This document shows, piece after piece, positions 5,052-64,000 of a stretch of DNA of 64,000 nt. Both the position numbers and the translations under genes were made by a program. Location of the stretch: contig OZ260106.1 of the NCBI GenBank assembly GCA_965284645.1, positions 2,815,747 to 2,879,746 of the forward strand, given 5' to 3'. The stretch's first letter is position 1; each line of letters starts with the position of its first letter. The notes beneath the pieces are model-generated. The model was not told the DNA's origin. It saw only the letters and a list, made by a program, of their open reading frames with translations, and ran no database searches. The DNA comes from an uncultured Bacteroidia bacterium. GTDB lineage: Bacteria; Bacteroidota; Bacteroidia; JAIBAJ01.

Positions 5052-5693
5052 GTGAAAAAACTACTACTAGGCTCCTTTTTATTTCTTGCCCTTACTGTTC
5101 AAGTAAAAGCCCAAGGGAATACCAGCGGAAACGTTGGAGTAGGCACCACCACCCCGCAAATTGATGCCGTTTTAGAAGTAACAGCTACCGATCGTGGTAT
5201 GTTAATTCCTCGTTTAGGAACAGCTGCCATCAATTCAATTTTCACAACATTTGGTCAATGCAACCCCGGTTTATTGGTTTATAATACCGACGAGAGCCAG
5301 TTTTGGTATAACAGTTCAACTTCTTTAAGTGCTCCTCCTGTTTGGGTTCAATTTCCTACTCGTATTTGTCCAACCAATTTTGTACCAGTTAATGAGTCGT
5401 ATTGCATCCTCAACAACGAGCAAACGGCCGATACTTGGTTTATGGCTGTAACCAATTGCGGTAATTTTGGTGCCAATGGCGTACCGGCTCACCTGTGCAC
5501 TTGGGCTGAGTGGTACAATGCCTGCCCCAATGCTGGAACCTTATTAATAAGCAACATGACAGGCAACAACGAATGGGTCGACGACGCTACCGGACCAAAC
5601 GAGGCCAAAGTAGTAGGAGGCACCAACTGCAGCAGTTCAGGCGAGGCCGCGGTGAATACCCAAAACACCTACCGTTGCTGCTTCAGACGTTAA
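5052..5693 (+). CDS. Secreted Cys-rich protein with tail-fibre-like N-terminal motif (GNVGVGTTTPQ..L.V....GMLIPRL...GLLVYNTD..FWYN)
   Basis: GTG start. Signal peptide MKKLLLGSFLFLALTVQVKAQ. Eight Cys in the C-terminal half. The N-terminal motif is shared with two internal segments of the 721-aa ORF at 59919. Confidence 0.55.
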   Translation: MKKLLLGSFLFLALTVQVKAQGNTSGNVGVGTTTPQIDAVLEVTATDRGMLIPRLGTAAINSIFTTFGQCNPGLLVYNTDESQFWYNSSTSLSAPPVWVQFPTRICPTNFVPVNESYCILNNEQTADTWFMAVTNCGNFGANGVPAHLCTWAEWYNACPNAGTLLISNMTGNNEWVDDATGPNEAKVVGGTNCSSSGEAAVNTQNTYRCCFRR

Positions 5694-5800: not shown

Positions 5801-6152
5801 AATAAAAATGTGGCGGGCCCTTTTCGCCCAAAACCATTAGCACTTTATATTAGCTGAACTGCCAGGCGAAAAGGCCGGGCTATTCGCTGCAAATCCTCGC
5901 GCCTTTCGCTTACGCTCAGGCCGCTGTGGGTTTTCCGCTGCTATCCCTGCCCGGAAACAGCGTGCGGATACTTGGGTTTTAGTGGTTTAAACCCAGATTT
6001 TGCATTAGAAATCCATAAACGATTAACCCGTTGTAAATCAATTTGTATGGCCCAATTGATAAAAACTGCTATCCCGAAATTTCTTTGGGAGGGTAAACCC
6101 AACTAAATCAAGTAGTTCGGATTAATAATTCCTCCTATTGATTTGGGTTAAA
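5801..6152. repeat. Mosaic interspersed repeat locus 1: module B (minus, 5801-5957) + module A (plus, 5987-6152)
   Basis: B core ...GGCGAAAAGGCCGGGCTATTCGCTGCAAATCCTC...CTGTGGGTTTTCCGCTGCTATCCCTGCCCGG is the reverse complement of the B copy at 44352-44485. A copy begins TTAAACCCAGATTTTGCATTAGAAAT and ends ATTGATTTGGGTTAAA. Confidence 0.85.
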
Positions 6153-6432
6153 TGGAGAGATGATGAAAGTGGTTATATAACTGTTTTGTGGAAGAAAGAA
6201 GAAGGAAATAGGAGATGATAAACTTATTTTGGAGTTCCAAATAGCTCACCTAAATATACCTATTGGGGTATAAAGAAATGGTATTTTATTTTTTCTTTGG
6301 GAAGTATTTGGAAATTACCTACTCCTATTTTTGAAGGCAGATTTGGTAAAAAGAAATTTAATGGCAACTAGATGTAATTTAGAGGTCATTGAAAGACGAC
6401 TCACATAAATCACAATTAATGACATAGAATTA

Positions 6433-7002
6433 ATGCAAGACTTTATTGACCAAGCAAATAAAAATGGTGTAACACTTCTCGACAAAGGAAGGTGTCAATT
6501 TTGTGGTGCAGACTATCAAAAGGGCATTTTTGAATGTATGGACAATTATAACCATGGACTTCAATTTTTGGACTTTGTTAATCCAGAACATCAAATTTCA
6601 AGGTTTTTAAGCGTAGATGCTCATGCTTTACAACACCCAGAAATTCACGGACGGTGGAGCAATCATTTTCATTTAACAAGACTGAACATAATTCTTGACA
6701 AAAACCAAACTTGGGACTACAAAAAATCACCAATACTCAGTGACTATTTGAACGCATACAAACTAAATAGACCGAATGAGTTTCTTTCCATCCCGAAACC
6801 ATTAGAAAGAGGAAAAATAACAGCAAAAGAGTTGATTAAGGCGACATCAGCAGACGAATGTGTTGCACTAATAAAAAACTGGGCGGACGAAGTATATCAT
6901 TCATGGAGTTCAAGTTATTCAATAGTTTCTCAAATTGCAGACGGTTTTTTAGACAACATTTACAATGGAAAAACACATGACAGTAAAACAACGAACCGCT
7001 AA
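6433..7002 (+). CDS. Hypothetical protein (Cys-rich N-terminus, CxxC...C, no recognised family)
   Basis: 189-aa ORF in the AT-rich islet. GRCQFCGADYQKGIFEC suggests a small metal-binding knuckle. No family recognised from sequence. Confidence 0.45.
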   Translation: MQDFIDQANKNGVTLLDKGRCQFCGADYQKGIFECMDNYNHGLQFLDFVNPEHQISRFLSVDAHALQHPEIHGRWSNHFHLTRLNIILDKNQTWDYKKSPILSDYLNAYKLNRPNEFLSIPKPLERGKITAKELIKATSADECVALIKNWADEVYHSWSSSYSIVSQIADGFLDNIYNGKTHDSKTTNR

Positions 7003-7133
7003 CAAAGGGCAAGCTCAGAGTACGTCACAAACTGCAGGAAACGAACATAAAAACTGAAGACAACATTCAATCCCTTCAAAAACAAAAAGACCATCAAATC
7101 TTTAAAAGCAAAAAATAGCTACCAAGGAATATT

Positions 7134-7523
7134 CTATTTGCTTTTCAATTTTTGTTTATTTAATTTATAATCGACACCCCACTTTGCCATAGTTTGTATA
7201 ACTGGCGACAAAGTAAGACCAAACTCCGTTAGGTTATATTCTACTTTGGGTGGTATTTCTGCATAAATTTTTCTACTAATAATTCCATCATCTTCTAATT
7301 CTCTTAACTGTTGTGTAAGCATAGATTGAGTGATGCCCACTACACTGCGTTTCAATTCACCAAACCTTGCAGGGGCTGTATGGTAGATTGCGTTGATAAG
7401 AATAGGCTTCCATTTTCCACCTAAAACCTTCATCGTTGCAGTTACTGGACAATTATTCTCATCAAAAATAAAAGTTTTTTTAGTTTCAATTAACTGATTA
7501 TCAATATTAGTATTTTTATTCAT
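7134..7523 (-). CDS. HxlR-family winged-helix transcriptional regulator
   Basis: Canonical HxlR core CPVTATMKVLGGKWKPILINAIYHTAPARFGELKRSVVGITQSMLTQQLRELEDDGIISRKIY. Divergent from a YciI-like gene. Confidence 0.85.
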   Translation of the reverse strand: MNKNTNIDNQLIETKKTFIFDENNCPVTATMKVLGGKWKPILINAIYHTAPARFGELKRSVVGITQSMLTQQLRELEDDGIISRKIYAEIPPKVEYNLTEFGLTLSPVIQTMAKWGVDYKLNKQKLKSK

Positions 7524-7617
7524 ACTTACTTTGCTTTAATGTCCTACTTGTTGAATTTAAAATAACATTGTTTTTTTGCACTACAAATATAAATAGAACA
7601 ACTTAAAAACAAACAAA

Positions 7618-7959
7618 ATGGAAAAATTCATTCTTATTTTTAGAGGTGGTAATACGCATATTTCCACTGCTAATTCACAAGCCGCAATGGACATAATTAA
7701 AACTTGGGACAATTGGATGCAAGGACTTGCCGAAAAAGGAATTCTTGCTGGAGGCGATGCTCTGCAAGTATCAGGCAAGAATGTGAAAAGTTCAAAAAAA
7801 GTAGTTTCAGATGGTCCATATGCTGACGGAAATGAAATGGTTGGTGGCTACTTAATAGTAAATGCAAAAAACATTGAAGCAGCTGTTGAAATTTCAAAAG
7901 GTTGTCCGATTTTAAGTGAAGAAGGAAGCGTTGAAGTTCGCCCAATTCAATTAAGATAA
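7618..7959 (+). CDS. YciI-like (DGPF domain) small protein
   Basis: 113 aa. ...GGYLIVNAKNIEAAVEISKGCPIL...VEVRPI matches the YCII-related fold family. Classic divergent partner of HxlR regulators. Confidence 0.75.
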   Translation: MEKFILIFRGGNTHISTANSQAAMDIIKTWDNWMQGLAEKGILAGGDALQVSGKNVKSSKKVVSDGPYADGNEMVGGYLIVNAKNIEAAVEISKGCPILSEEGSVEVRPIQLR

Positions 7960-8011
7960 ATACAAAGTATGGAGTATTCTTCAGCGTATTAAGACATCAA
8001 CAAAACTATTG

Positions 8012-8055
8012 ACCATCTTTTTCGCAATAAAGCGAGAAAGATGGTAGTTTTTTTT
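8012..8055 (+). terminator. Rho-independent terminator after YciI-like gene
   Basis: ACCATCTTT ... AAAGATGGT 9-bp stem, 16-nt loop, followed by AGTTTTTTTT. Confidence 0.6.
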
Positions 8056-8253
8056 ACACCAATTCAAAAAAGCAATCTTGGCAAGCTAATAACAAGCCAA
8101 CGCTTCAAGACAATTCCAAACCTTGGACAATTTGACCTAAAATACTAAACGTTAGCACCTAGCATAGACTCCGGTTTGGGCGATTTGTACATTTGAGTTG
8201 TCACAAATTTCCACAAGAAAGGTGAAAGATGGTTGTTGAAAATAGTTTCTCTT

Positions 8254-8341
8254 TTTGCGACAGGATGTTGTAAGAAGAGCACTATTATTGTTACAGTCAA
8301 ACAGAATATTTGTCGCAAATATTTACTAATTTTGCGACAAA
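8254..8341 (+). promoter_or_regulatory. Operator/promoter region of the abiEi-abiEii operon: perfect 11-bp inverted repeat plus an extra upstream half-site
   Basis: Perfect 11-bp inverted repeat TTTGTCGCAAA (8309-8319) / TTTGCGACAAA (8331-8341) with an 11-bp spacer. Third half-site TTTGCGACA at 8254-8262. The palindrome overlaps a TAATTTTG (TAnnTTTG) -7-like element at 8327-8334, about 26 bp upstream of the TTG start. Confidence 0.55.
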
Positions 8342-8359
8342 ATTTAAAAAGTCATAACC

Positions 8360-8968
8360 TTGCAAAGTATTGAAAAGCAAATAGAAAAGGTCATTAAAAG
8401 CAAACCAAGAGGTTCATTGGTGTTACCTGCTGATTTTTTGCTCTATGGAACATCAAAGGCTGTTCAAAAATCATTAGAACGCTTGGAAGAAAAGCAAGTG
8501 ATTGTTCGAGTAGCGCATGGTATTTATGTACGTCCAAAAATAAGTAAGCTAATTGGGCCACTTACCCCCTCAGCGGAAGAAGTTGCGGAGGCTATTGCCA
8601 AGCGAGACAGGATACGCACTGTACCTACAGGTAGTTATGCTTTGAATGCATTAGGGTTGAGTACTCAAGTGCCGATGAATATTGTGCTACTTACTGATGG
8701 TTCACCTCGAGAAATAAAAGTAGGCAAACGAACCATAAAATTTAAGAAAACCACACCTAAAAACCTGTTGGCAAAAGGCAAAATAAGTCGCTTGGTAATT
8801 CAAGCCCTTAAAGAGATAGGCAATGGGAAAGTAACAGAAGATGAAGAAATAAAAATATTGGATATACTTAAAAAGGAAAACGAAAAAAAACTAAAAAACG
8901 ACATTGCTCTTACACCTGTGTGGATTCAAAAAATAATGAATAAAGCATTGATCATTGGCAAAGATTGA
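8360..8968 (+). CDS. AbiEi-family type IV toxin-antitoxin antitoxin / transcriptional regulator
   Basis: TTG start. About 200 aa with an N-terminal winged-HTH-like segment (GSLVLPADFLLYGTSKAVQKSLERLEEKQVIVRVAHGIYV). Sits immediately upstream of, and overlapping, an AbiEii nucleotidyltransferase gene. Confidence 0.7.
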   Translation: MQSIEKQIEKVIKSKPRGSLVLPADFLLYGTSKAVQKSLERLEEKQVIVRVAHGIYVRPKISKLIGPLTPSAEEVAEAIAKRDRIRTVPTGSYALNALGLSTQVPMNIVLLTDGSPREIKVGKRTIKFKKTTPKNLLAKGKISRLVIQALKEIGNGKVTEDEEIKILDILKKENEKKLKNDIALTPVWIQKIMNKALIIGKD

Positions 8969-9998
8969 TTTTTACCAAATAGATAAGGCCGAAAAAGCAG
9001 CCATCTTTACAGAGATTGCTACCCAAAAGGGAATGAATCCTTTTGCAGTAGAGAAAGACTGGTGGGTAAGCCGAACCTTAGAAATTATCTTTCAAATGCC
9101 CATTGCAGAGCATTTAGTTTTTAAAGGCGGTACATCATTAAGTAAGGCGTGGAAACTCATCAATCGATTTTCAGAAGATATTGATTTAGCTATTGATAAG
9201 GAGTATTTTGGATTTAAGGGAGAGTTAGGAAAGAATCAAAGAGATAAACTCAGAAAAACAGCAGGTGCTTATACTACCGGAACTTTCTTTGAAGAGTTAA
9301 AGAAGAGCTTTGAAGGGAAAGGATTTAAGGATTTAAAATTTGTAGTGATTGAAGCCAAAGACAGCGACCAAGATCCAAGAGTATTAGAGATTTACTATCC
9401 CAACATCATCAAAGCGAAATCAGAATATCTCTTACCAAGAGTGCAGATTGAAGTTAGTTGCCGTTCTTTAAGAGAACCCTTTACTGCAAAGTCTTTTGGG
9501 GCATTGGTAGATGAATTTTATCCTGATAAAAATTTTGCTGAAAAGCTATTTGAAGTTCCAACCGTAAATGCAGAGCGTACATTTTTGGAAAAAATATTCT
9601 TGTTACATGAAGAATTTCAGCGTCCGATTGAAAAAATGCGAGTAGACAGATTAAGCCGCCATTTGTACGATGTTTATCAATTGGCAAAAGCAGGAATTGC
9701 TGAAAAAGCAATCAACGATAAAGAACTTTACGAAACCATTGTAGCACATAGATACAAATTTTCAAGAGTTGGCGAAGTGGATTATAACAAACATAACCCT
9801 AAAACAATAAATCCTATTCCCAAAGAAATAGTAATTGCAGATTGGGAAGAAGATTACACCAAAATGAAAGAAGCTATGATATACGGTGAGAACAAGCCAA
9901 GTTTTAAGGATTTGATAATCAATTTAATGGAATTAATTGAACAACTGCAAGTCGTTGAATGGCCTTTTCAACTTGAATTTCCTATTCCTAATTCTTAA
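8955..9998 (+). CDS. AbiEii/AbiGii-family nucleotidyltransferase toxin (DUF1814)
   Basis: Diagnostic motifs EKDWWVSRTLE ... LVFKGGTSLSKAWKLINRFSEDIDLAID (GS-x10-DxD nucleotidyltransferase). 14-bp overlap with the upstream antitoxin gene. Confidence 0.85.
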   Translation: MAKIDFYQIDKAEKAAIFTEIATQKGMNPFAVEKDWWVSRTLEIIFQMPIAEHLVFKGGTSLSKAWKLINRFSEDIDLAIDKEYFGFKGELGKNQRDKLRKTAGAYTTGTFFEELKKSFEGKGFKDLKFVVIEAKDSDQDPRVLEIYYPNIIKAKSEYLLPRVQIEVSCRSLREPFTAKSFGALVDEFYPDKNFAEKLFEVPTVNAERTFLEKIFLLHEEFQRPIEKMRVDRLSRHLYDVYQLAKAGIAEKAINDKELYETIVAHRYKFSRVGEVDYNKHNPKTINPIPKEIVIADWEEDYTKMKEAMIYGENKPSFKDLIINLMELIEQLQVVEWPFQLEFPIPNS

Positions 9999-10086
9999 TT
10001 GAAAATTCGAAATTGACTATGACAGATAACAGGATAATACAAGATTAGACCGTTGTGAAAGCTAAAAATGGAGATTTATGATTTTT

Positions 10087-10428
10087 TTAACCCTGATTGC
10101 GCATTAGCATTTCATAAACGAATAATCAGTTGTAAATCAACTTGTTTATCCAAATTGATAACCACAATTATCCCGAAATTTCTTCGAGAGGGAAAAACCC
10201 ACTAAAACAAGTAGTTTGAATTAATAATCCTCCAATGGATTAATTTTGGTTAAAGCACCCCGGGCAACGATAGGAACGGAAAGCCCACAGGCCAGACGTA
10301 GCGCTAGCGAAGACTGGCCGAGGACTTGCAGTGGATAGCGTGGCCCTACCGCCCATGCAGCAAACTAAAGTTCCAGGTAGACTGCGGTATTGGCGGTAGG
10401 GAGCCCGCCTAAAAAGAAAAAATGAGAA
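10087..10428. repeat. Mosaic repeat locus 2: module A (plus, 10087-10255) + module B (plus, 10256-10428)
   Basis: A: TTAACCCTGATTGCGCATTAGCATTTCATAAACG...TTAATTTTGGTTAAAG. B: CCCGGGCAACGATAGGAACGGAAAGCCCACAGG-[GGCCAGACGTAGCGCTAGCGAAGACTGGCC hairpin]-GAGGACTTGCAGTGGATAGCGTGGCCC...GGCGGTAGGGAGCCCGCC-A-rich tail. Confidence 0.85.
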
Positions 10429-10468: not shown

Positions 10469-11146
10469 TTAATCCTCCAATAAATCAGGTCGCCTAGTTT
10501 TGGTGCGCTCCAAGGACTGTTCGTGCCGCCATTCGTCAATCTTTTTTTGGTGCCCACTGAGCAATACATCGGGTACTTTCATGCCTTCGAAATCGGCTGG
10601 ACGGGTGTAAACGGGAGGGGCCAACAAATTATCCTGAAATGAATCGCTTAGGGCCGAGGTTTCGTCGCCAATGGAGCCAGGTATGAGCCTTATGATGCTG
10701 TCGCACAACACGGCAGCTGCCAATTCGCCTCCGCTTAAAACGTAGTCGCCAATGGAAATCTCTAGTGTAACGTATTTCTCCCTGATTCGCTGGTCGATGC
10801 CTTTGTAATGCCCACAAATAAAGAGCAGGTTGCTTAAGGTGGAAAGTCGGTTGGCCACAGCCTGGTTGTGTGTAATGCCGTCGGGGGTAAGGAAAATGAT
10901 TTCGTCGTAGCTTCTTTGCTTTTTCAATGCCTCAATGCAATTGGACAAAGGAAGGGGCATCAAAACCATACCAGCTCCGCCACCAAAAGGATAATCGTCG
11001 ACCTGGCGGTGTTTGTAAGGAGTGTAGTCGCGGAGCTGGTGCACCTGAATTTCCACTATGCCTTTTTCGCGCGCACGTTTAACAATACTGTGCCCAAAAG
11101 GACTTTCCAGTAGTTCGGGTAAAACCGTAATTATATCGATTCTCAT
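10469..11146 (-). CDS. trmD: tRNA (guanine37-N1)-methyltransferase
   Basis: [11 protein letters not shown]...; SPOUT-fold TrmD motifs ([31 protein letters not shown]). Confidence 0.9.
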
Positions 11147-16929: not shown

Positions 16930-17433
16930 ATGGCTTGTTTTAAAGTAAATAGAAAACTCCACTTGATTTTTTTGTTGATTCTAACTTTTCAATTTCAAGG
17001 AAATGCTCAAACTTTATTGAAGAACTTTGATGAATTGATGAATGCTCTAAAGGCTGGGAAATCGGTTAAGACAGTTATTTATTATGAAAAATGCAAGCTA
17101 TTTTCGGATGGGATAGAAAAGCCCGAATCGCCTAATGCCATTGGCGGTATGCGCTTAGATACGTATGAGTATTTTGATTCGAGTGTATTCAAGAATAAAG
17201 TGCCTTCCTTTGTTACAAGTTCTCAAACGGTTTTAATTAACCATTCCTATTATGGTTACGTTTACAATTATGTGAAAGTGAAAGTGCGTATTGATCAAAC
17301 CGTTGAAATTACAGCTCGATACCTGAAACCTAGAAAATTTTCTTCCAAATTCAAAGTAGTCATGGATGAGGTTTTTAAAGGAAAAATATATGATGGAACC
17401 AACGATGCAGGGGTTTGGTTTTATGCCGAATAG
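16930..17433 (+). CDS. Hypothetical secreted protein
   Basis: Signal peptide ending ...FQGNAQ. No family recognised. Confidence 0.45.
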   Translation: MACFKVNRKLHLIFLLILTFQFQGNAQTLLKNFDELMNALKAGKSVKTVIYYEKCKLFSDGIEKPESPNAIGGMRLDTYEYFDSSVFKNKVPSFVTSSQTVLINHSYYGYVYNYVKVKVRIDQTVEITARYLKPRKFSSKFKVVMDEVFKGKIYDGTNDAGVWFYAE

Positions 17434-18968: not shown

Positions 18969-19066
18969 GAAGATTTGAACCTTGGTCTCTAAGGTGTTTT
19001 GTTGGTAAAAAGGCTAAATTGTTGAATGGTAATAATTGCATCCAAGCTTAAAGTCTGTGCTTCTTT

Positions 19067-19213
19067 CCGGGTAGGGATAGGAACGGAAAGCCCACAGGGA
19101 TGCGGAGGAACGGAGCAGACCGAGGACTTGCAGTGTATAGCCCGACCATGAGCCATGCACCAAAGTTTAAAACAAAGGAGAATGTGAAAAGGCGAATGGG
19201 ACCCGCCAAATAA
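19067..19213 (+). repeat. Mosaic repeat locus 3: solitary module B (plus)
   Basis: CCGGGTAGGGATAGGAACGGAAAGCCCACAGGG...CGAGGACTTGCAGTGTATAGCCCGACC...GGCGAATGGGACCCGCCAAATAAG. Confidence 0.8.
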
Positions 19214-25607: not shown

Positions 25608-25764
25608 TTTTTTATTTTTTGGCGGGCACCATTCGCAAAAACAGGTTCGTCATTAAATTAAAATTTGGCAAGGCGAATGGTCGGGCTATACGCTGCAAGT
25701 CCTCGTCCAGTCTACGTTTCACTTCGTCTGTCCTGTGGGCTTTACGCTTCTATCCCTTCCCGGA
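25608..25764 (-). repeat. Mosaic repeat locus 4: solitary module B (minus)
   Basis: TTTTTTATTTTTGGCGGGCACCATTCGC...GGCGAATGGTCGGGCTATACGCTGCAAGTCCTCG...CCTGTGGGCTTTACGCTTCTATCCCTTCCCGG. Confidence 0.8.
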
Positions 25765-37249: not shown

Positions 37250-37706
37250 TAAACCCAGATTACGCATTAGAAATACATAAACGATTAACCAGTTGTAAAT
37301 CAATTTGGATGGCCAAATTGATAACAACTGCTATCCCGAAATTTCTTCGGGAGGGGTAAACCCAACTAAATCAAGTAGTTCGGATTTTTAAATCCTCCTA
37401 TTGATTAATTTGGGATAAAAAAGGGTATGCATGATTTATCAATGAAGGGAATTTGAATAGGACCAGCCCTATTTTGGGGGAAGCCCTTAGAAGAAGCCAA
37501 AATTGAAATGCAAAACTAAAATACTTCGCCAACAACCGGGCACGAAGACCAATCGGGCAGGGATAGCAGTGGAAAGCCCGCAAACCAGCCGTAGCGCAGC
37601 AAGCTGGTTGAGGACTTGGAACGAATAGCCCGACCATTCGCCCAGCACAACTATTAAATCTGGGTAGAATGGAGCTGGCGAATGGGGCCCGCCAAATAAA
37701 AAAAAG
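37250..37706 (+). repeat. Mosaic repeat locus 5: module A (plus, 37250-37418) + 135-bp spacer + module B (plus, 37554-37706)
   Basis: A: AAACCCAGATTACGCATTAGAAATACATAAACG...TTGATTAATTTGGGATAAAA. B: CGGGCAGGGATAGCAGTGGAAAGCCCGC-[AACCAGCCGTAGCGCAGCAAGCTGGTT hairpin]-GAGGACTTGGAACGAATAGCCCGACCATTCGCC...GGCGAATGGGGCCCGCCAAATAAAAAAAAG. Confidence 0.85.
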
Positions 37707-37820
37707 AAGGGTTAAAGTCTCGTTTAAGCATCGGGGTACAATTTGGATTTGCATTCAAAATTTCCATAATCCAGCCTTGGGTATCGAATCGGGAGGGGAA
37801 AAGTTTACCTTTGTCCTGCA

Positions 37821-43619: not shown

Positions 43620-43635
43620 GTTGCTGGATGCTATC

Positions 43636-44560
43636 CATTTCTATTTTCTATTTTCTATTTTCTAATTTCTCATTTTTTCCCCAATTTTTAATTTTTAATT
43701 CGCTAATTTTTAATTTATTAGGCGGGCTCCCTTTCGCCCAAATACAGCTTTTTCCTTTGAAACAATTTATTCTGCTAGGGCTCAAGGGCCACGCTATCGC
43801 CCATACTCCTCGGTCTGCTCCGTTCCTCCGCAGCCCTGTGGGGTATTTGGCTCTATCGTTGCCCGGACCCTTGCCTAAGTTTTGGTGGGTGGAAAAAAGT
43901 TTTGGAGCTGCTTGGGCTGGGGTGATTTTGGGGGCAGAGCCAGTAAGTGAATTTACCGAAAAATACTTCTTAAACCCAAATTAATCAATAGGAGGATTTA
44001 TTAATCCGAACTACTTGATTTAGTTGGGTTTACCCCTCCCGAAGAAATTTCGGGATAGCAGTTGTTATCAATTTGGCCATACAAATGGATTTACAACTGG
44101 TTAATCGTTTATGCATTTCTAATGCGTAATCTGGGTTAAACCCAAATTCAGCATTAGAAATCTATTACAGCTTCCAACTGCTTCAAATACAAGGATTTCA
44201 GAACAATTTTTGACTTCAAAATAGTTTACTATTCCTTCACCCAAAAATTAACCTGAAACCCTCGTCTTTATTGCATTTGAAAGCTTCATTTCGATTTCTA
44301 ATGCGTAATCTGGGTTTAAACCACCAAAACCCAAGTACCAGCACGCACTTTCCGGGCAGGGATAGCAGCGGAAAACCCACAGCGGCCTGAGCGTAAGCGA
44401 AAGGCGCGAGGATTTGCAGCGAATAGCCCGACCTGAACGCCACTTGCACCATGCTTGGACTCAGGGAAAAGTTTTTGTGGCGGAAGGGCACGCATAAGTA
44501 ATTAAAAATTAGGGAATTAAAAATTAAGAATTAGAAAAGAGAAGAGAGAAAAGAGTTTCT
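43636..44560. repeat. Mosaic repeat locus 7: ~0.9-kb imperfect palindromic assembly bounded by ~70-bp AT-rich inverted repeats (IR-L, B-, A-, A fragments, B+, IR-R)
   Basis: IR-L, 43636-43712: tandem heptamers CTATTTT x3-4, then TAATTTTTAATTCGCTAATTTTTAATTTATTA. B(-) at 43712-43870 and A(-) at 43972-44150. A-terminus fragments at 44157-44172 and 44294-44322. B(+) at 44352-44485. IR-R, 44490-44560: AATTAAAAATTAGGGAATTAAAAATTAAGAATTAGAAAAGAGAAGAGAG is the reverse-complement counterpart of IR-L. Confidence 0.8.
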
Positions 44561-57680: not shown

Positions 57681-57830
57681 GCATTAGATATCCTTTAGAA
57701 CTTAACCTTTTGTAAATCAATTTGTTTTGTCAAATTGACTTACAAATGCTATCCTGAAATGCTCGAGGAGGTGTCCAGCTAAATCAAGTAATTCAGATTA
57801 AAAGTCCTCCTTTTGATTAAATTGAGTTTA
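57681..57830 (+). repeat. Mosaic repeat locus 9: module A (plus), left terminus missing
   Basis: GCATTAGATATCCTTTAGAACTTAACCTTTTGTAAATCAATTTGTTTTGTCAAATTGA...AAATCAAGTAATTCAGATTAAAAGTCCTCCTTTTGATTAAATTGAGTTTAAAGG. Confidence 0.7.
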
Positions 57831-59276
57831 AAGGCTTTCTAAAAAGGATTTAAGCAAAGGAAAAATGTTTAAATTCTTTCCTGCAGGATTAAGGTCGAAT
57901 TCTGTTTTTAATTCCTGAATCAAAGTTGGAATTTTTTCTTGTTGTTTGCCATTTAGCAAGGTGCGAAAGGTTTTTATAATGATTTTGTCAAAATTGTCAG
58001 CTCCATTTTTTTTCAAAAATCTTTCAAAAGATACCAATATATTTTCCACTAAATCAAAATTGCCCTTTTTAAAATGGGCCATCATTTGAAAAACCTGAAG
58101 TGTAGTTTGGGTGTCAAAATGTTTTTTGACCTTTAAATTTTGTCTATATACTTCAATCCAATGGATAGTTGAAGAATAATCCTGGTATTCTAGCATGGCG
58201 CTTGAAAAAGCTGTAACTAGTGCTAAAAATAAATCAGAACGAATATAACTAAGAAAGGCCAACATTTGCTTTTCAGTTTGTTTAGCCAAAAGCATAACTC
58301 CTTGGTGGTCTTTTTGATTATCAAGCCAAACCAATTTAAACATACTGTAATACAAAAACTGGTAAAGTTTAGCCTGTTGATTTTTAAATGCATAGGAATT
58401 TAGCTCTTCGAGTAAATTACCTAATCCTTCCAGATTTCCATTAAAATAGGCAGCGGTCATACATTGGTTATAGGCATTGATTAAAGGCAACTGATCTATA
58501 GTCAAAAAATAGCTACCACTTTTACATATTTCTAGCAATTCCTTTGCCTCATTTTCTGCTTCCTGTCGCTTTCCAGCAACCGCATAAAAATTTAATTTAA
58601 TACAAGCATGGTAATGTCTGGCACGTTGACCAACCGGCAGGATTTTCCCTGTCATGGCATTATGGTTAATAATATCCATATGCAATTCCTTGATGGTTTT
58701 TCCGATTAAAGTGTAGCTGGGAGTCATAATTACCGCTTGTTGGTACAGCAGATTTTCATACAAATGGAAATTTTCCCAATTCGTAAGAACTTGTTCATAC
58801 ACCCTATTTAAGTTTTCAATCTCCTCAATTTGTTTATCACTGGTATTTATTTGCAACCAAAGTTTTCTTTTTTGATCAAGCAATTCCATTTGGTAATGAA
58901 AAAGCTCGTTTCGTTCTGCAAAGGCTAATGCTTTATTCAATTGCCGGAGTGCATCGTCTGAAAGTCCACGGCTTGCCAATAAATGGAAATTGGCAATGGT
59001 TCTTAAAAATCCAATCTGGCTCAAATTTTCCTGGTGGAATTGGCCTAAGGATTGAAGCAATGATCCAAACAAATAGTTTTTAGTTATATGCAATTTCGCT
59101 AGAGGAGTTTTGGTCTTTTTCGCCAGTATTTCATCCTCATCCGCTTTCATTTCTTCTAAAATAGTGAATACTTTAAGGTAGTTCGTTGTATTTGAATCAT
59201 CAAATCCTGAACTGGCCCATTTGCGAAAATATCCCTTCTCGGAAGGTGAAAGTGATTTGATTAATTCGAATAGCAT
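57828..59276 (-). CDS. Hypothetical all-alpha (TPR-like?) cytoplasmic protein
   Basis: 482 aa. No signal peptide. Leucine-rich helical repeats. Divergent from two secreted-protein genes. Confidence 0.45.
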   Translation of the reverse strand: MLFELIKSLSPSEKGYFRKWASSGFDDSNTTNYLKVFTILEEMKADEDEILAKKTKTPLAKLHITKNYLFGSLLQSLGQFHQENLSQIGFLRTIANFHLLASRGLSDDALRQLNKALAFAERNELFHYQMELLDQKRKLWLQINTSDKQIEEIENLNRVYEQVLTNWENFHLYENLLYQQAVIMTPSYTLIGKTIKELHMDIINHNAMTGKILPVGQRARHYHACIKLNFYAVAGKRQEAENEAKELLEICKSGSYFLTIDQLPLINAYNQCMTAAYFNGNLEGLGNLLEELNSYAFKNQQAKLYQFLYYSMFKLVWLDNQKDHQGVMLLAKQTEKQMLAFLSYIRSDLFLALVTAFSSAMLEYQDYSSTIHWIEVYRQNLKVKKHFDTQTTLQVFQMMAHFKKGNFDLVENILVSFERFLKKNGADNFDKIIIKTFRTLLNGKQQEKIPTLIQELKTEFDLNPAGKNLNIFPLLKSFLESL

Positions 59277-63467: not shown

Positions 63468-63653
63468 GTCGTATTTTGGACGAAAATAGTAGAAAAAAAA
63501 TAATACCGAATAGACATTATGTATAGTCCAATAGTAGGCTTACATTTTCTAGAAAAGATTTGACTATCAAACTGTATCCCCGGCATTTACCATTCTAATT
63601 TTACAAATATCCTTAGGACGATTTTTAAATTAAAAATGGTATAAAAGGTTTAT

Positions 63654-64000
63654 TTAACCCAGATTACGCATTAGAAATGCATAAACGATTAACCAGTTGT
63701 AAATCAATTTTTATAGCCAAATTGATAACAACTGCTATCCCAAAATTCCTTAGGGAGGGGTAAACCCAACTAAATCAAGTAGTTCGGATTAATAAATCCT
63801 CCTATTGATTAATTTGGGTTTAATGGCAAAATGGTTTTGCTGGCACTTCACTTCCCGGGCAGGGATAGCAGTGGAAAGCCCACAGGACCGCCGTGACCCG
63901 AACCCTTTCGGGTTACAGCGGGGCGAGGACTTGGAACGGATAGCCCGGTGCTTTCGCCCCTTGCTAAAGCCAAGATTAATAGCAAAAAGGTTTTGGGCGA
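63654..64000 (+). repeat. Mosaic repeat locus 11: module A (plus, 63654-63824) + module B (plus, 63854-window end, truncated by window)
   Basis: A: TTAACCCAGATTACGCATTAGAAATGCATAAACGATTAACCAGTTGTAAATCAATT...TTGATTAATTTGGGTTTAATGG. B: CCCGGGCAGGGATAGCAGTGGAAAGCCCACAGG-[CCGCCGTGACCCGAACCCTTTCGGGTTACAGCGGGG nested hairpin]-GAGGACTTGGAACGGATAGCCCGG... Confidence 0.85.

What the first reader, a model, noticed from the sequence alone, without database searches (positions are those of the whole stretch)
6153..10086. AT-rich ~3.9-kb islet flanked by mosaic repeats carrying an AbiEi/AbiEii abortive-infection (type IV TA) pair, HxlR/YciI and an unknown Cys-rich ORF
The segment between repeat locus 1 and repeat locus 2 is visibly more AT-rich than its neighbours. 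It holds five genes. One is a 189-aa unknown with a CxxC...C knuckle. There is a divergent HxlR regulator / YciI-like pair. There is also an overlapping abiEi (winged-helix antitoxin) / abiEii (DUF1814 nucleotidyltransferase; EKDWWV, FKGGTSLSKAW, SEDIDL) operon. AbiE-type nucleotidyltransferase toxins are established phage-defence / plasmid-stabilisation modules. Their presence between mobile-looking repeats, inserted between a secreted-protein gene and trmD, marks this as a horizontally acquired defence islet. The unknown 189-aa ORF is a candidate additional defence or accessory component worth examining.
Basis: partly seen in the sequence, partly recalled or inferred. Interest (0 to 1): 0.55.

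Follow-up and report, generated by a model that had tools for sequence, protein, structure and literature searches.

The report
Orphan AbiE cassette from a BREX locus
The AT-rich 3.9-kb segment is real and holds an intact, ordinary AbiEi/AbiEii toxin-antitoxin pair that still carries the first nine codons of a BREX gene, so it is a broken-off piece of a larger phage-defence locus sitting beside two unrelated small gene modules.

Summary
Window 6153-10086 is the most AT-rich 3.9-kb stretch of the window (GC 0.345 against a mean of 0.407). Its five genes have the five lowest GC3 values of 51 ORFs. HMMs confirm DUF5946, HxlR, YCII, AbiEi (the DUF6088 type) and AbiEii (PF08843).

The interpretation needs four corrections.
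1. The flanking "mosaic repeats" belong to a family scattered across the window: a 158-nt MITE-like unit and Flavo-1-like GC-rich units. They are not island-specific borders.
2. The five genes form three independent modules. DUF5946 lies elsewhere among small housekeeping-type accessory genes, never next to AbiE, so nothing ties it to defence.
3. The abiE cassette (8192-10049) is 75-82% identical at DNA level to cassettes embedded between pglX and pglZ of type-1 BREX loci in other Bacteroidota. It is followed by a nine-codon pglZ stub (10019-10048). It is therefore a fragment of a BREX locus. No other BREX gene is in the window.
4. A 2026 preprint reclassifies AbiE from type IV to type VII.

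AbiEii keeps the catalytic residues and the Ser phospho-acceptor. A conspecific strain has it cut by an IS630 element. This is a new member of a known kind, of modest interest.

The parts
5869..5955 (-). GC-rich repeat unit G1, a Flavo-1-RNA-like motif below the Rfam threshold
   Evidence: RF01705, 32.1 bits against a gathering score of 42, full model 1-76. It is one of seven such matches in the window.
5986..6143 (+). AT-rich repeat unit A1 (MITE-like, 12-nt terminal inverted repeat TTAACCCAGATT / AATTTGGGTTAA)
   Evidence: It is 92% identical to the copies at 37250-37406 and 43983-44144(-), and 81% to A2. No significant RNA fold (z -1.5 and +0.2).
6433..7002 (+). DUF5946 gene: 189 aa, Cys/His-rich, all-alpha, function unknown. 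Independent single-gene module.
7134..7523 (-). HxlR-family winged-helix regulator, divergent from the YCII gene
   Evidence: PF01638 E 6e-30. More than 100 homologues at 82-93% identity.
7618..7959 (+). YCII-domain protein, 113 aa
   Evidence: PF03795 E 1.2e-10.
8012..8045 (+). Intrinsic-terminator-like hairpin (14 pairs followed by a T run) that closes the YCII transcription unit
8192..10049 (+). Block of DNA homology to abiE cassettes embedded in BREX loci: promoter/operator region, abiEi, abiEii, spacer and the start of pglZ
   Evidence: blastn 75-82% identity to L165-L170, L175 and L176. In the DISARM-like locus L174 the homology ends at 10004.
8234..8262 (.). Distal, degenerate operator-like inverted repeat (TGTTGAAAA-N11-TTTGCGACA)
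   Evidence: It corresponds to the second and third palindromes upstream of abiEi in L165, L167 and L169.
8309..8341 (.). Proximal operator-like perfect palindrome TTTGTCGCAAA-N11-TTTGCGACAAA. It overlaps a Bacteroidetes-type -7 box TAATTTTG (8327-8334).
   Evidence: 100% complementary arms. Equivalent TGTAACAAAT-N9-ATTTGTTACA palindromes occur upstream of abiEi in L165, L167 and L169. The promoter assignment is inference.
8360..8968 (+). abiEi antitoxin/repressor, DUF6088 type, 202 aa
   Evidence: PF19570 E 3e-83, covering profile 1-172/172. PADLOC AbiEi PDLC02226 E 2e-70. NCBIfam TAA_AbiEi only 27 bits against a cut-off of 150.
8955..9998 (+). abiEii nucleotidyltransferase toxin, 347 aa, overlapping abiEi by 14 nt
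   Evidence: PF08843 E 3.7e-39; PADLOC PDLC02289 E 1e-98. G58 G59-x15-D75-I-D77, R71, S73, K213 and R235-HLY-D239 are present. No private change at family-invariant positions.
10019..10048 (+). pglZ stub: ATG ACA GAT AAC AGG ATA ATA CAA GAT TAG, translating to MTDNRIIQD*
   Evidence: It matches the PglZ N-termini MTDNWIIQDIEKH of L165, L169, L175 and L176, with the same 20-nt spacing after the abiEii stop. PglZ identity of the L165 protein: PADLOC E 4e-301.
10085..10241 (+). AT-rich repeat unit A2
   Evidence: Four of the 32 differences from conspecific L001 cluster at 10202-10219.
10259..10349 (+). GC-rich repeat unit G2, Flavo-1-like and below threshold
   Evidence: RF01705, 29.6 bits.

Best explanation
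The segment is a composite, horizontally acquired accessory region. It holds three unrelated modules, lodged between dispersed intergenic repeats upstream of trmD.

**Module 1** is a stand-alone DUF5946 gene. It encodes a Zn-knuckle plus helical protein of unknown function. It is most likely a small metal-binding accessory protein, not a defence gene.

**Module 2** is a divergent HxlR regulator / YCII pair. This is probably a small-molecule or redox-responsive unit in which HxlR controls the YCII gene.

**Module 3** is a self-contained abiEi-abiEii cassette that was torn out of a type-1 BREX locus.
- In its closest relatives this cassette sits between pglX and pglZ.
- Here it keeps its own operator/promoter, both intact genes, the BREX-type spacer and nine codons of pglZ. 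Every other BREX gene is missing from the window.

**Inferred mode of action, from characterised homologues.**
- AbiEi binds the palindrome over the promoter and represses the operon.
- AbiEi also binds AbiEii and induces its auto-phosphorylation on Ser73, which silences the toxin.
- When this control fails, for example on phage infection or loss of the cassette, AbiEii acts as a polymerase-beta-type nucleotidyltransferase. It probably adds nucleotides to tRNA 3' ends, which blocks aminoacylation, translation and growth. This gives abortive infection and/or post-segregational addiction.

**Shown here:** gene content, composition, homology, the BREX origin, motif conservation and the strain-level disruption.
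**Inferred:** repression, phosphorylation, the tRNA target and any phage defence.
For: **Composition.** The segment is the lowest-GC window and its genes have the five lowest GC3 values.

**Family assignments.**

**BREX origin.**
- Six independent contigs with AbiEii of 80-83% identity were read for the four nearest BREX-associated proteins. The four that reach upstream carry DUF6088-AbiEii after pglX. The four that reach downstream carry pglZ-brxL after it. The short contigs reach only one side. The flanking proteins of L165 are PglX, PglZ and BrxL by PADLOC (E 0, 4e-301, 6e-276).
- A fifth protein's contig (L174) is a DISARM-like locus, with the cassette between DrmD and DrmMI.
- One contiguous blastn alignment covers 8192/8430-10049 at 75-82% identity. 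It runs through the spacer into the pglZ start.
- The stub translates to MTDNRIIQD*, against MTDNWIIQD in PglZ.
- No other BREX protein matches anywhere in the window.

**The cassette looks functional.**
- Profile coverage is full length.
- The motif residues G58 G59-x15-D75xD77, R71 and S73 equal S. agalactiae R63, T65, D67 and D69.
- The motif alignment with PDB 6y56 agrees.
- dN/dS is 0.08-0.10.
- There are no private substitutions at invariant columns.
- A perfect palindrome lies upstream, matching those of homologous loci.

**Independence of the modules.** DUF5946 contexts lack AbiE, HxlR and YCII. AbiE contexts lack DUF5946, HxlR and YCII.

**The region varies between strains.** In conspecific contig L001 (99.1% identical over 3.65 kb) an IS630 element cuts abiEii inside motif I, and unrelated genes follow.

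**Mechanism.** Dy et al. 2014 (PMC3985639); bioRxiv 10.64898/2026.01.19.700257; the MenT papers listed.
Against: - No genome with an empty site, or with a complete BREX locus at this position, was available. The direction and number of acquisition events are therefore inferred.
- The identity contrast between islet and core genes rests on different databases. Islet proteins were searched in the 5.8-billion-protein set. TrmD was searched in GTDB representatives and M28 in JGI contigs.
- Synonymous sites between the window cassette and the sampled BREX cassettes are saturated (dS above 1). None of the sampled loci is therefore the donor.
- Structural confirmation failed. The AF2 model of AbiEii was poor (pLDDT 62), so its Foldseek hits are meaningless. 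phmmer against PDB found nothing for either protein.
- AbiEi is far below the NCBIfam equivalog cut-off.
- Motif IV reads RHLYD instead of the published +DxxD.
- Phage defence is not guaranteed. S. agalactiae AbiE protected E. coli against none of 32 phages.
Confidence: 0.72

Rival explanations
1. In-situ decay. A complete type-1 BREX locus once lay between the secreted-protein gene and trmD. Deletions, perhaps by recombination between A or G repeat copies, removed brxA-pglX on one side and pglZ-brxL on the other. The abiE cassette survived because losing it is lethal (addiction).
For: - The pglZ stub ends 35 nt before repeat A2.
- Repeats of this family show clustered differences between strains, which suggests recombination or gene conversion.
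- The right junction (A2/G2 + stub + abiEii 3' end) is shared by conspecific contigs L001 and L002.
- TA cassettes are known to stabilise DNA (PMC3985639).
Against: - There is no pglX remnant to the left of the cassette.
- Two unrelated modules, not BREX debris, lie on the left.
- The cassette (GC 0.35-0.37) is more AT-rich than both its host and the sampled BREX cassettes (GC 0.39-0.43). That fits import from a low-GC donor at least as well.
- No relative with a full BREX locus at this site is known.
Confidence: 0.3
2. The whole 3.9 kb is one mobile unit, delimited and moved by the two direct A repeats. This would work like a composite transposon, a MITE pair, or a circular element integrated by recombination at an A unit.
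For: A units flank the segment in direct orientation, exactly at the composition boundaries, with G units outside them. At about 44 kb a G-A-G arrangement exists without cargo.
Against: - A1 is closer to the copies at 37 kb and 44 kb (92%) than to A2 (81%).
- Spacing between A and G units differs between sites.
- No transposase or recombinase lies in or next to the segment.
- The three modules occur separately in other genomes.
- A and G units were not found in 2.3 Mb of other Bacteroidota loci. A shared vehicle is therefore unsupported.
Confidence: 0.1
3. The abiE pair is an inert relic. It has been orphaned from BREX and is no longer expressed or toxic, so it is on its way to being lost.
For: - Its usual genomic partners are gone.
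- The distal operator is degenerate.
- The TTG start codons are as listed by the ORF tool.
- A conspecific strain has already lost a functional copy through IS630.
Against: - Both ORFs are full length, with the conserved 14-nt overlap.
- All catalytic residues and the phospho-acceptor are kept.
- There are zero private changes at positions invariant in 32 homologues.
- A perfect proximal palindrome overlaps a promoter-like box.
- Inactivation of the toxin by an IS in L001 is what one expects for an active, costly toxin.
Confidence: 0.15
4. The region is native. Its low GC simply reflects short, weakly expressed accessory genes, not transfer.
For: Other short ORFs in the window are also AT-rich, for example 16930-17433 at GC 0.34.
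Against: - Five adjacent genes hold the five lowest GC3 ranks of 51.
- The three islet proteins searched have relatives of 80-93% identity in other families or classes.
- The pglZ stub shows that at least module 3 came from another genomic context.
Confidence: 0.05

Closest known systems
AbiE (AbiEi/AbiEii) abortive-infection toxin-antitoxin systems of Lactococcus lactis and Streptococcus agalactiae; the homologous MenA/MenT systems of Mycobacterium tuberculosis
   Same: - A bicistronic, overlapping antitoxin-toxin operon.
- The toxin is a DUF1814/PF08843 polymerase-beta-type nucleotidyltransferase with hGG-x15-DhD, the motif-II Arg and a Ser/Thr phospho-acceptor two residues before the first Asp.
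- The antitoxin is a winged-helix protein matching AbiEi models.
- An inverted repeat lies over the promoter.
   Different: - The antitoxin is of the DUF6088 type. It is only weakly similar to the NCBIfam AbiEi equivalog (27 bits against 150).
- There is no detectable sequence match to the solved AbiEi 6Y8Q or to MenT structures, apart from a motif-level hit to 6y56.
- Motif IV is RHLYD rather than +DxxD.
- The toxin is longer (347 aa).
- No functional data exist for this clade.
Accessory cassettes embedded in type-1 BREX loci, for example the ATPase + DUF4435 pair between pglX and pglZ of Salmonella StySA (PMC9009780)
   Same: In the nearest relatives the abiE cassette occupies the same pglX-pglZ junction as the Salmonella accessory genes. 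It diverges roughly in step with PglZ and BrxL.
   Different: - In the window only the cassette and nine codons of pglZ remain. It is an orphan, not part of a BREX system.
- I found no paper in the searched library that describes AbiE embedded in BREX.
DUF6088 + AbiEii/AbiGii pairs annotated on plasmids (Rhizobium, Agrobacterium, Bacteroides fragilis)
   Same: The same two-family pair. It is annotated on 459 PLSDB plasmids, which is consistent with a stabilisation role.
   Different: Identity is only about 32% (40% for B. fragilis). The window copy is chromosomal and belongs to a BREX/DISARM-associated Bacteroidota clade.
Flavo-1 RNA motif (RF01705; Weinberg et al. 2010, PMC2864571) and MITE-like intergenic repeats
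   Same: The GC-rich units next to the segment align over the full Flavo-1 model. The AT-rich unit has 12-nt terminal inverted repeats, like a MITE.
   Different: All seven Flavo-1-like copies score below the gathering threshold (27.8-38.1 against 42 bits). The AT-rich unit matches no Rfam family and shows no significant fold.

Membership tests
AbiE toxin-antitoxin / abortive infection system | Toxin carries the DUF1814 / AbiEii nucleotidyltransferase domain | tested here: met
   PF08843 E 3.7e-39, 135.5 bits against a cut-off of 22.5, profile positions 9-235 of 238. PADLOC AbiEii PDLC02289 E 1.2e-98.
AbiE toxin-antitoxin / abortive infection system | NTase motifs I and II: hG[G/S]-x15-DhD with an Arg in motif II (Dy et al. 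2014) | tested here: met
   F56-K-G58-G59, then 15 residues, then D75-I-D77; R71. All are invariant in 33 homologues.
AbiE toxin-antitoxin / abortive infection system | Motif III (Lys among hydrophobic residues) and motif IV (+DxxD) | tested here: inconclusive
   K213 in EKIFLL is present and invariant. Motif IV reads R235-H-L-Y-D239: the first acidic residue is His, and it is invariant in this clade. It aligns with RDLYD of PDB 6y56.
AbiE toxin-antitoxin / abortive infection system | Ser/Thr phospho-acceptor equivalent to S. agalactiae AbiEii T65 and MenT3 S78 | tested here: met
   S73 lies two residues before D75, as T65 lies before D67. It is invariant. Phosphorylation itself was not tested.
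AbiE toxin-antitoxin / abortive infection system | Upstream, overlapping gene for an AbiEi-type winged-helix antitoxin | tested here: met
   PADLOC AbiEi PDLC02226 E 2.1e-70, full length. Pfam DUF6088 E 3e-83. 14-nt overlap. Caveats: NCBIfam TAA_AbiEi scores only 27 bits against a cut-off of 150, and there is no PDB sequence hit.
AbiE toxin-antitoxin / abortive infection system | Inverted-repeat operator in the promoter for autoregulation | tested here: met
   Perfect 11-nt arms at 8309-8319 and 8331-8341, plus a degenerate second site. Equivalent palindromes occur in homologous loci. Binding was not tested.
AbiE toxin-antitoxin / abortive infection system | Toxicity of AbiEii, neutralisation by AbiEi, phage resistance | not testable with these tools
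   This needs expression and infection assays.
BREX type 1 | Core genes brxA, brxB, brxC, pglX, pglZ and brxL present | tested here: not met
   tblastn of PglX, PglZ, BrxL and the accessory proteins from L165, L167 and L169 against the whole window gave nothing below E 0.2. Only a nine-codon pglZ stub remains, at 10019-10048.
Integrated genomic island or mobile element | Integrase or transposase, tRNA or att site, element-specific direct repeats | tested here: not met
   No tRNA in the window. No recombinase among the five genes. The flanking repeats are a dispersed family, and each is closer to other copies than to its partner.
Integrated genomic island or mobile element | Atypical composition, and closer relatives in distant taxa than the core genes have | tested here: met
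   Different databases were used for the core genes.
Integrated genomic island or mobile element | Absent from the same site in close relatives | tested here: inconclusive
   Only conspecific contigs exist. L001 shares the right junction but is rearranged at an IS630 inside abiEii. The next-closest sequences found had 74% TrmD identity (GTDB genomes) and 51% M28 identity (JGI metagenome contigs), with no synteny.
DUF5946 (PF19371) | Match to the family profile above the gathering score | tested here: met
   87.5 bits against 28, profile positions 2-141 of 141.
Flavo-1 RNA (RF01705) | Covariance-model score at or above the gathering threshold | tested here: not met
   Seven full-length matches at 27.8-38.1 bits against 42. 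They are related to the family but below threshold.

The most novel reading that the evidence does not exclude
This DUF6088-type AbiE clade may be a functional second layer of Bacteroidota BREX and DISARM loci, not a casual passenger. It co-diverges with PglZ and BrxL and always sits inside the operon. It might, for example, be released when the Lon-like BrxL or phage interference removes AbiEi. On this reading the window shows the addictive cassette outliving its parent system: a molecular fossil of BREX decay that still works as a stand-alone abortive-infection or addiction module.
Probability: 0.2. Interest if true: 0.55.

Novelty: new member of a known kind. Interest (0 to 1): 0.3.

Why it matters
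As an AbiE locus it adds little. The family is widespread and is routinely found by PADLOC or DefenseFinder. Two points have some value.

First, the pglZ stub gives a clear, sequence-level example of how a toxin-antitoxin cassette leaves a large defence system and persists alone. This bears on how defence islands are assembled and eroded.

Second, the nearest relatives show a conserved AbiE cassette inside BREX and DISARM-like operons of Bacteroidota. I did not find this association described in the searched literature. It could be tested for functional coupling.

The negative result on DUF5946 matters too. Co-location here is not evidence that it is a defence gene.

Tried and rejected
- **Synteny test in relatives.** A genome-contig scan with TrmD gave 74% identity at best and no shared neighbours. 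A metagenome scan with the M28 peptidase gave 51% at best and no synteny. Exact look-ups of AbiEii, DUF5946 and the secreted protein found nothing. No empty-site comparison was therefore possible.
- **L171.** This contig looked like a strain breakpoint inside the DUF5946 gene. Its first 170 nt read as 23S rRNA on my inspection (not tool-confirmed), so I treated it as an assembly chimera and discarded it.
- **Structure route for AbiEii.** The AF2 model was poor (pLDDT 62; the catalytic half was below 50) and the Foldseek PDB hits were meaningless. phmmer and a profile search against PDB gave only a motif-level hit to 6y56.
- **Repeat unit A as a structured RNA.** No Rfam family matched, the fold z-scores were -1.5 and +0.2, and only 2 of 47 predicted pairs covary. 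Rejected in favour of a MITE-like repeat.
- **Phage origin.** There was no IMG/VR match for AbiEii, and the PHROG hits were only to unknown-function families.
- **BREX remnants to the left of the cassette, or elsewhere in the window.** None found.
- **DUF5946 on plasmids.** No PLSDB match.
- **Literature on AbiE inside BREX.** Nothing explicit was found.

Full report
**1. The observation**

The segment 6153-10086 has GC 0.345. The flank with the peptidase genes has 0.430 and the trmD-kor flank 0.454. The segment is the minimum of all 3934-nt windows in the 64 kb (mean 0.407, sd 0.021). Its five ORFs have GC3 of 0.22-0.30. These are the five lowest of 51 ORFs of at least 90 aa.

| Coordinates | Family | Evidence |
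|---|---|---|
| 6433-7002 (+) | DUF5946 | Pfam E 1.6e-24 |
| 7134-7523 (-) | HxlR | Pfam E 6e-30 |
| 7618-7959 (+) | YCII | Pfam E 1.2e-10 |
| 8360-8968 (+) | AbiEi, DUF6088 type | Pfam E 3e-83; PADLOC E 2e-70 |
| 8955-9998 (+) | AbiEii, PF08843 | Pfam E 3.7e-39; PADLOC E 1e-98 |

The quoted peptide motifs are at AbiEii residues 33-38, 56-66 and 73-78. trmD (10469-11146, minus strand) and a signal-peptide protein (5052-5693) flank the segment.

**2. The repeats**

The 158-nt AT-rich unit that flanks the segment (5986-6143 and 10085-10241; direct orientation, 81% identical) also occurs at four other places: 37250-37406, 43983-44144 (minus strand), 63653-63826 and 57681-57818. The left copy is 92% identical to the copies at 37 kb and 44 kb, so it is closer to them than to its supposed partner. 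The unit has 12-nt terminal inverted repeats. It shows no convincing RNA structure.

The GC-rich units next to it are full-length but sub-threshold matches to the Flavo-1 RNA motif. Seven of them occur in the window, at 27.8-38.1 bits against a gathering score of 42. The motif was defined in PMC2864571.

Neither unit was found in 2.3 Mb of other Bacteroidota loci. Both were found only in conspecific contigs. Differences between the window and the conspecific contig L001 cluster in these repeats: 8 of 32 fall within 200 nt. That suggests fast turnover or gene conversion. The repeats are therefore a lineage-specific intergenic family. They may favour rearrangement, but they do not define a mobile element. 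There is no tRNA in the window and no recombinase in the segment.

**3. Origin of the abiE cassette**

AbiEii has thousands of homologues, and more than 100 of them are 76-83% identical. They come from Sphingobacteriales, Flavobacterium and Mongoliitalea among others.

I read the genomic context of five of the nearest proteins.
- For four of them, six independent contigs were read. Those that reach upstream show pglX before DUF6088-AbiEii. Those that reach downstream show pglZ-brxL after it. Together they place the pair inside type-1 BREX loci (L165-L170, L175, L176). PADLOC models confirm PglX, PglZ and BrxL for the L165 proteins (E 0, 4e-301, 6e-276).
- The fifth is a DISARM-like locus, with the pair between DrmD and DrmMI (L174).

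At the DNA level, window 8192-10049 aligns with these loci as one block at 75-82% identity. The block runs past the abiEii stop, through a 20-nt spacer, and into ATGACAGATAACAGGATAATACAAGATTAG. This translates to MTDNRIIQD*. PglZ in the BREX loci begins MTDNWIIQDIEKH at exactly the same spacing. In the DISARM-like context the homology stops at 10004, so the extra 45 nt are BREX-specific. No other BREX protein has any match in the window.

The cassette is therefore a fragment of a BREX locus. Among the BREX loci, AbiEi and AbiEii diverge about as much as PglZ and BrxL do. The cassette is thus a stable resident of that BREX lineage. The pglX-pglZ junction is a known site for accessory genes in Salmonella StySA (PMC9009780). 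I found no paper describing AbiE at that position.

**4. Is the orphan cassette functional?**

- Both ORFs are full length against their profiles and keep the 14-nt overlap seen in all relatives.
- AbiEii has G58-G59, 15 residues, then D75-I-D77, with R71 and S73. These correspond to R63, T65 (the phospho-acceptor), D67 and D69 of S. agalactiae AbiEii.
- The same stretch, and the RHLYD stretch, align with the MenT-type structure 6y56.
- Motif IV is RHLYD rather than +DxxD, and it is invariant in this clade.
- dN/dS against the BREX-embedded copies is 0.08-0.10.
- The window protein has no private substitution at any column that is invariant in the other 32 homologues.
- Upstream lies a perfect palindrome, TTTGTCGCAAA-N11-TTTGCGACAAA (8309-8341). 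It overlaps a TAnnTTTG box, and a degenerate second site lies further up. The relatives have two or three equivalent palindromes.

This matches the published behaviour of AbiEi as an autorepressor that binds inverted repeats (and the Hampton et al. 2018 reference seen).

The mechanism I infer is that of the family.
- AbiEi represses the operon and induces AbiEii auto-phosphorylation. The system is type VII according to the 2026 preprint.
- Free AbiEii is a nucleotidyltransferase that blocks translation. In the MenT relatives it does so by extending tRNA 3' ends.

None of this was tested here. Phage defence is not assured, because S. agalactiae AbiE protected E. coli against none of 32 phages.

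**5. The other two modules**

*DUF5946.*
- It is a small family: 107 clusters at 50% identity among 1.84 billion representatives, almost all stand-alone proteins of 160-190 aa.
- It is nevertheless very conserved, at 70-88% identity across Cyclobacteriaceae, Kapabacteria, Fluviicola, a Pedobacter plasmid and others.
- In two long contigs it lies among RibD_C, GNAT, SnoaL and DinB-type genes and a group II intron, with no AbiE, HxlR or YCII nearby. DNA similarity to the window is confined to the gene and at most 57 nt upstream.
- It has no PADLOC or PHROG hit.
- A confident AF2 model (pLDDT 87) is an all-alpha bundle with an N-terminal CxxC...C knuckle and a cluster of invariant histidines. It resembles no solved structure.
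- I see no evidence that it is a defence component.

*HxlR.* It has more than 100 relatives at 82-93% identity. With the divergent YCII gene and a strong terminator (8012-8045) it forms a separate unit.

**6. Horizontal origin and history**

Composition and the identity contrast support foreign origin. The three islet proteins searched reach 80-93% identity in other families or classes. TrmD reaches at most 74% and M28 at most 51%. The caveat is that different databases were used.

The only close relatives are conspecific contigs.
- L002 shares the right junction exactly.
- L001 (99.1% identical over 3.65 kb) shares trmD, the repeats, the pglZ stub and the 3' part of abiEii.
- In L001 an IS630-family element sits at the TA inside the codons for motif I (window 9137-9138), and unrelated genes follow it.

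The acquisition therefore predates the split of these strains. The locus is unstable, and the toxin has been knocked out in one strain.

Two histories remain open. Either the BREX fragment arrived as a fragment, or it is what remains of a complete BREX locus at this site. I cannot decide between them. I give the in-situ decay version about 0.3.

**7. Verdict**

This is an ordinary AbiE module in a composite low-GC accessory segment, and it is a new member of a known kind. The useful additions are three:
- the origin of the cassette from BREX, shown by the pglZ stub;
- the conserved embedding of this AbiE clade in BREX and DISARM-like operons;
- the absence of any link between DUF5946 and defence.

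Noticed in passing
window 37552-37639(+), 44351-44437(+), 19061-19151(+), 5869-5955(-), 25675-25764(-), 10259-10349(+), 63854-63954(+): Seven full-length matches to the Flavo-1 RNA model (RF01705), all below the gathering score (27.8-38.1 against 42 bits). This looks like a divergent, multi-copy Flavo-1-like family in a lineage outside the model's seed. Several copies create spurious GC-rich ORFs, for example 37398-37754 and 43628-43984.
   Followed up: partly
window 5986-6143, 10085-10241, 37250-37406, 43983-44144(-), 57681-57818, 63653-63826: A 158-nt AT-rich repeat with 12-nt terminal inverted repeats (MITE-like). It is often paired with a Flavo-1-like unit in varying order and spacing. It was seen only in conspecific contigs, and strain differences cluster within it.
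   Followed up: partly
L169 2783-2815, 6565-6631, 9045-9130, 11850-11920; L165 3482-3518, 9040-9067; window 9990-10015: Most intergenic spacers examined in the Bacteroidota BREX loci carry tandem CCTAATT / TTCCTAATTGAAAA-type repeats just upstream of the next gene; the spacer examined in L167 does not. Their function is unknown. They could be a translation-initiation or recombination signal.
   Followed up: no
L001 3654-4762: An IS630-family element with TIR TATAAAGTCTAATA, a TA target, and a transposase split into HTH and DDE ORFs. It is inserted in abiEii motif I of a conspecific strain. The DNA beyond it (a peptidase C45/AAT-like gene and a T9SS pectate-lyase-like gene) has no counterpart in the window.
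   Followed up: partly
L174 1-9221: The same AbiE cassette sits between a DrmD/DpdE-like SNF2 helicase and a DrmMI-like methyltransferase. So the cassette is also embedded in a DISARM-like locus, not only in BREX.
   Followed up: partly
window 57828-59276(-) and 16930-17433(+): Two further low-GC ORFs (GC 0.34). One is a 482-aa protein with no Pfam match, directly next to an AT-rich repeat unit. The other is a VirK-like protein. Both are possible additional acquired genes.
   Followed up: no
L171 1-170: A metagenome contig joins what reads on inspection as a 23S rRNA fragment (not tool-confirmed) to the DUF5946 gene at window position 6473. This is an assembly chimera that mimics a strain breakpoint.
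   Followed up: yes
window 8199-8235 and L165 7288-7322, L167 7255-7285, L169 7257-7285: Upstream of the abiEi operators lies a conserved box, GTCACAAATTTCGACAAGA, within a palindrome. The arms of the palindrome differ between loci but stay complementary (TTTCGTCA/TGACGAAA against CTGTCACA/TGTGACAG). In the window the palindrome is degenerate.
   Followed up: no
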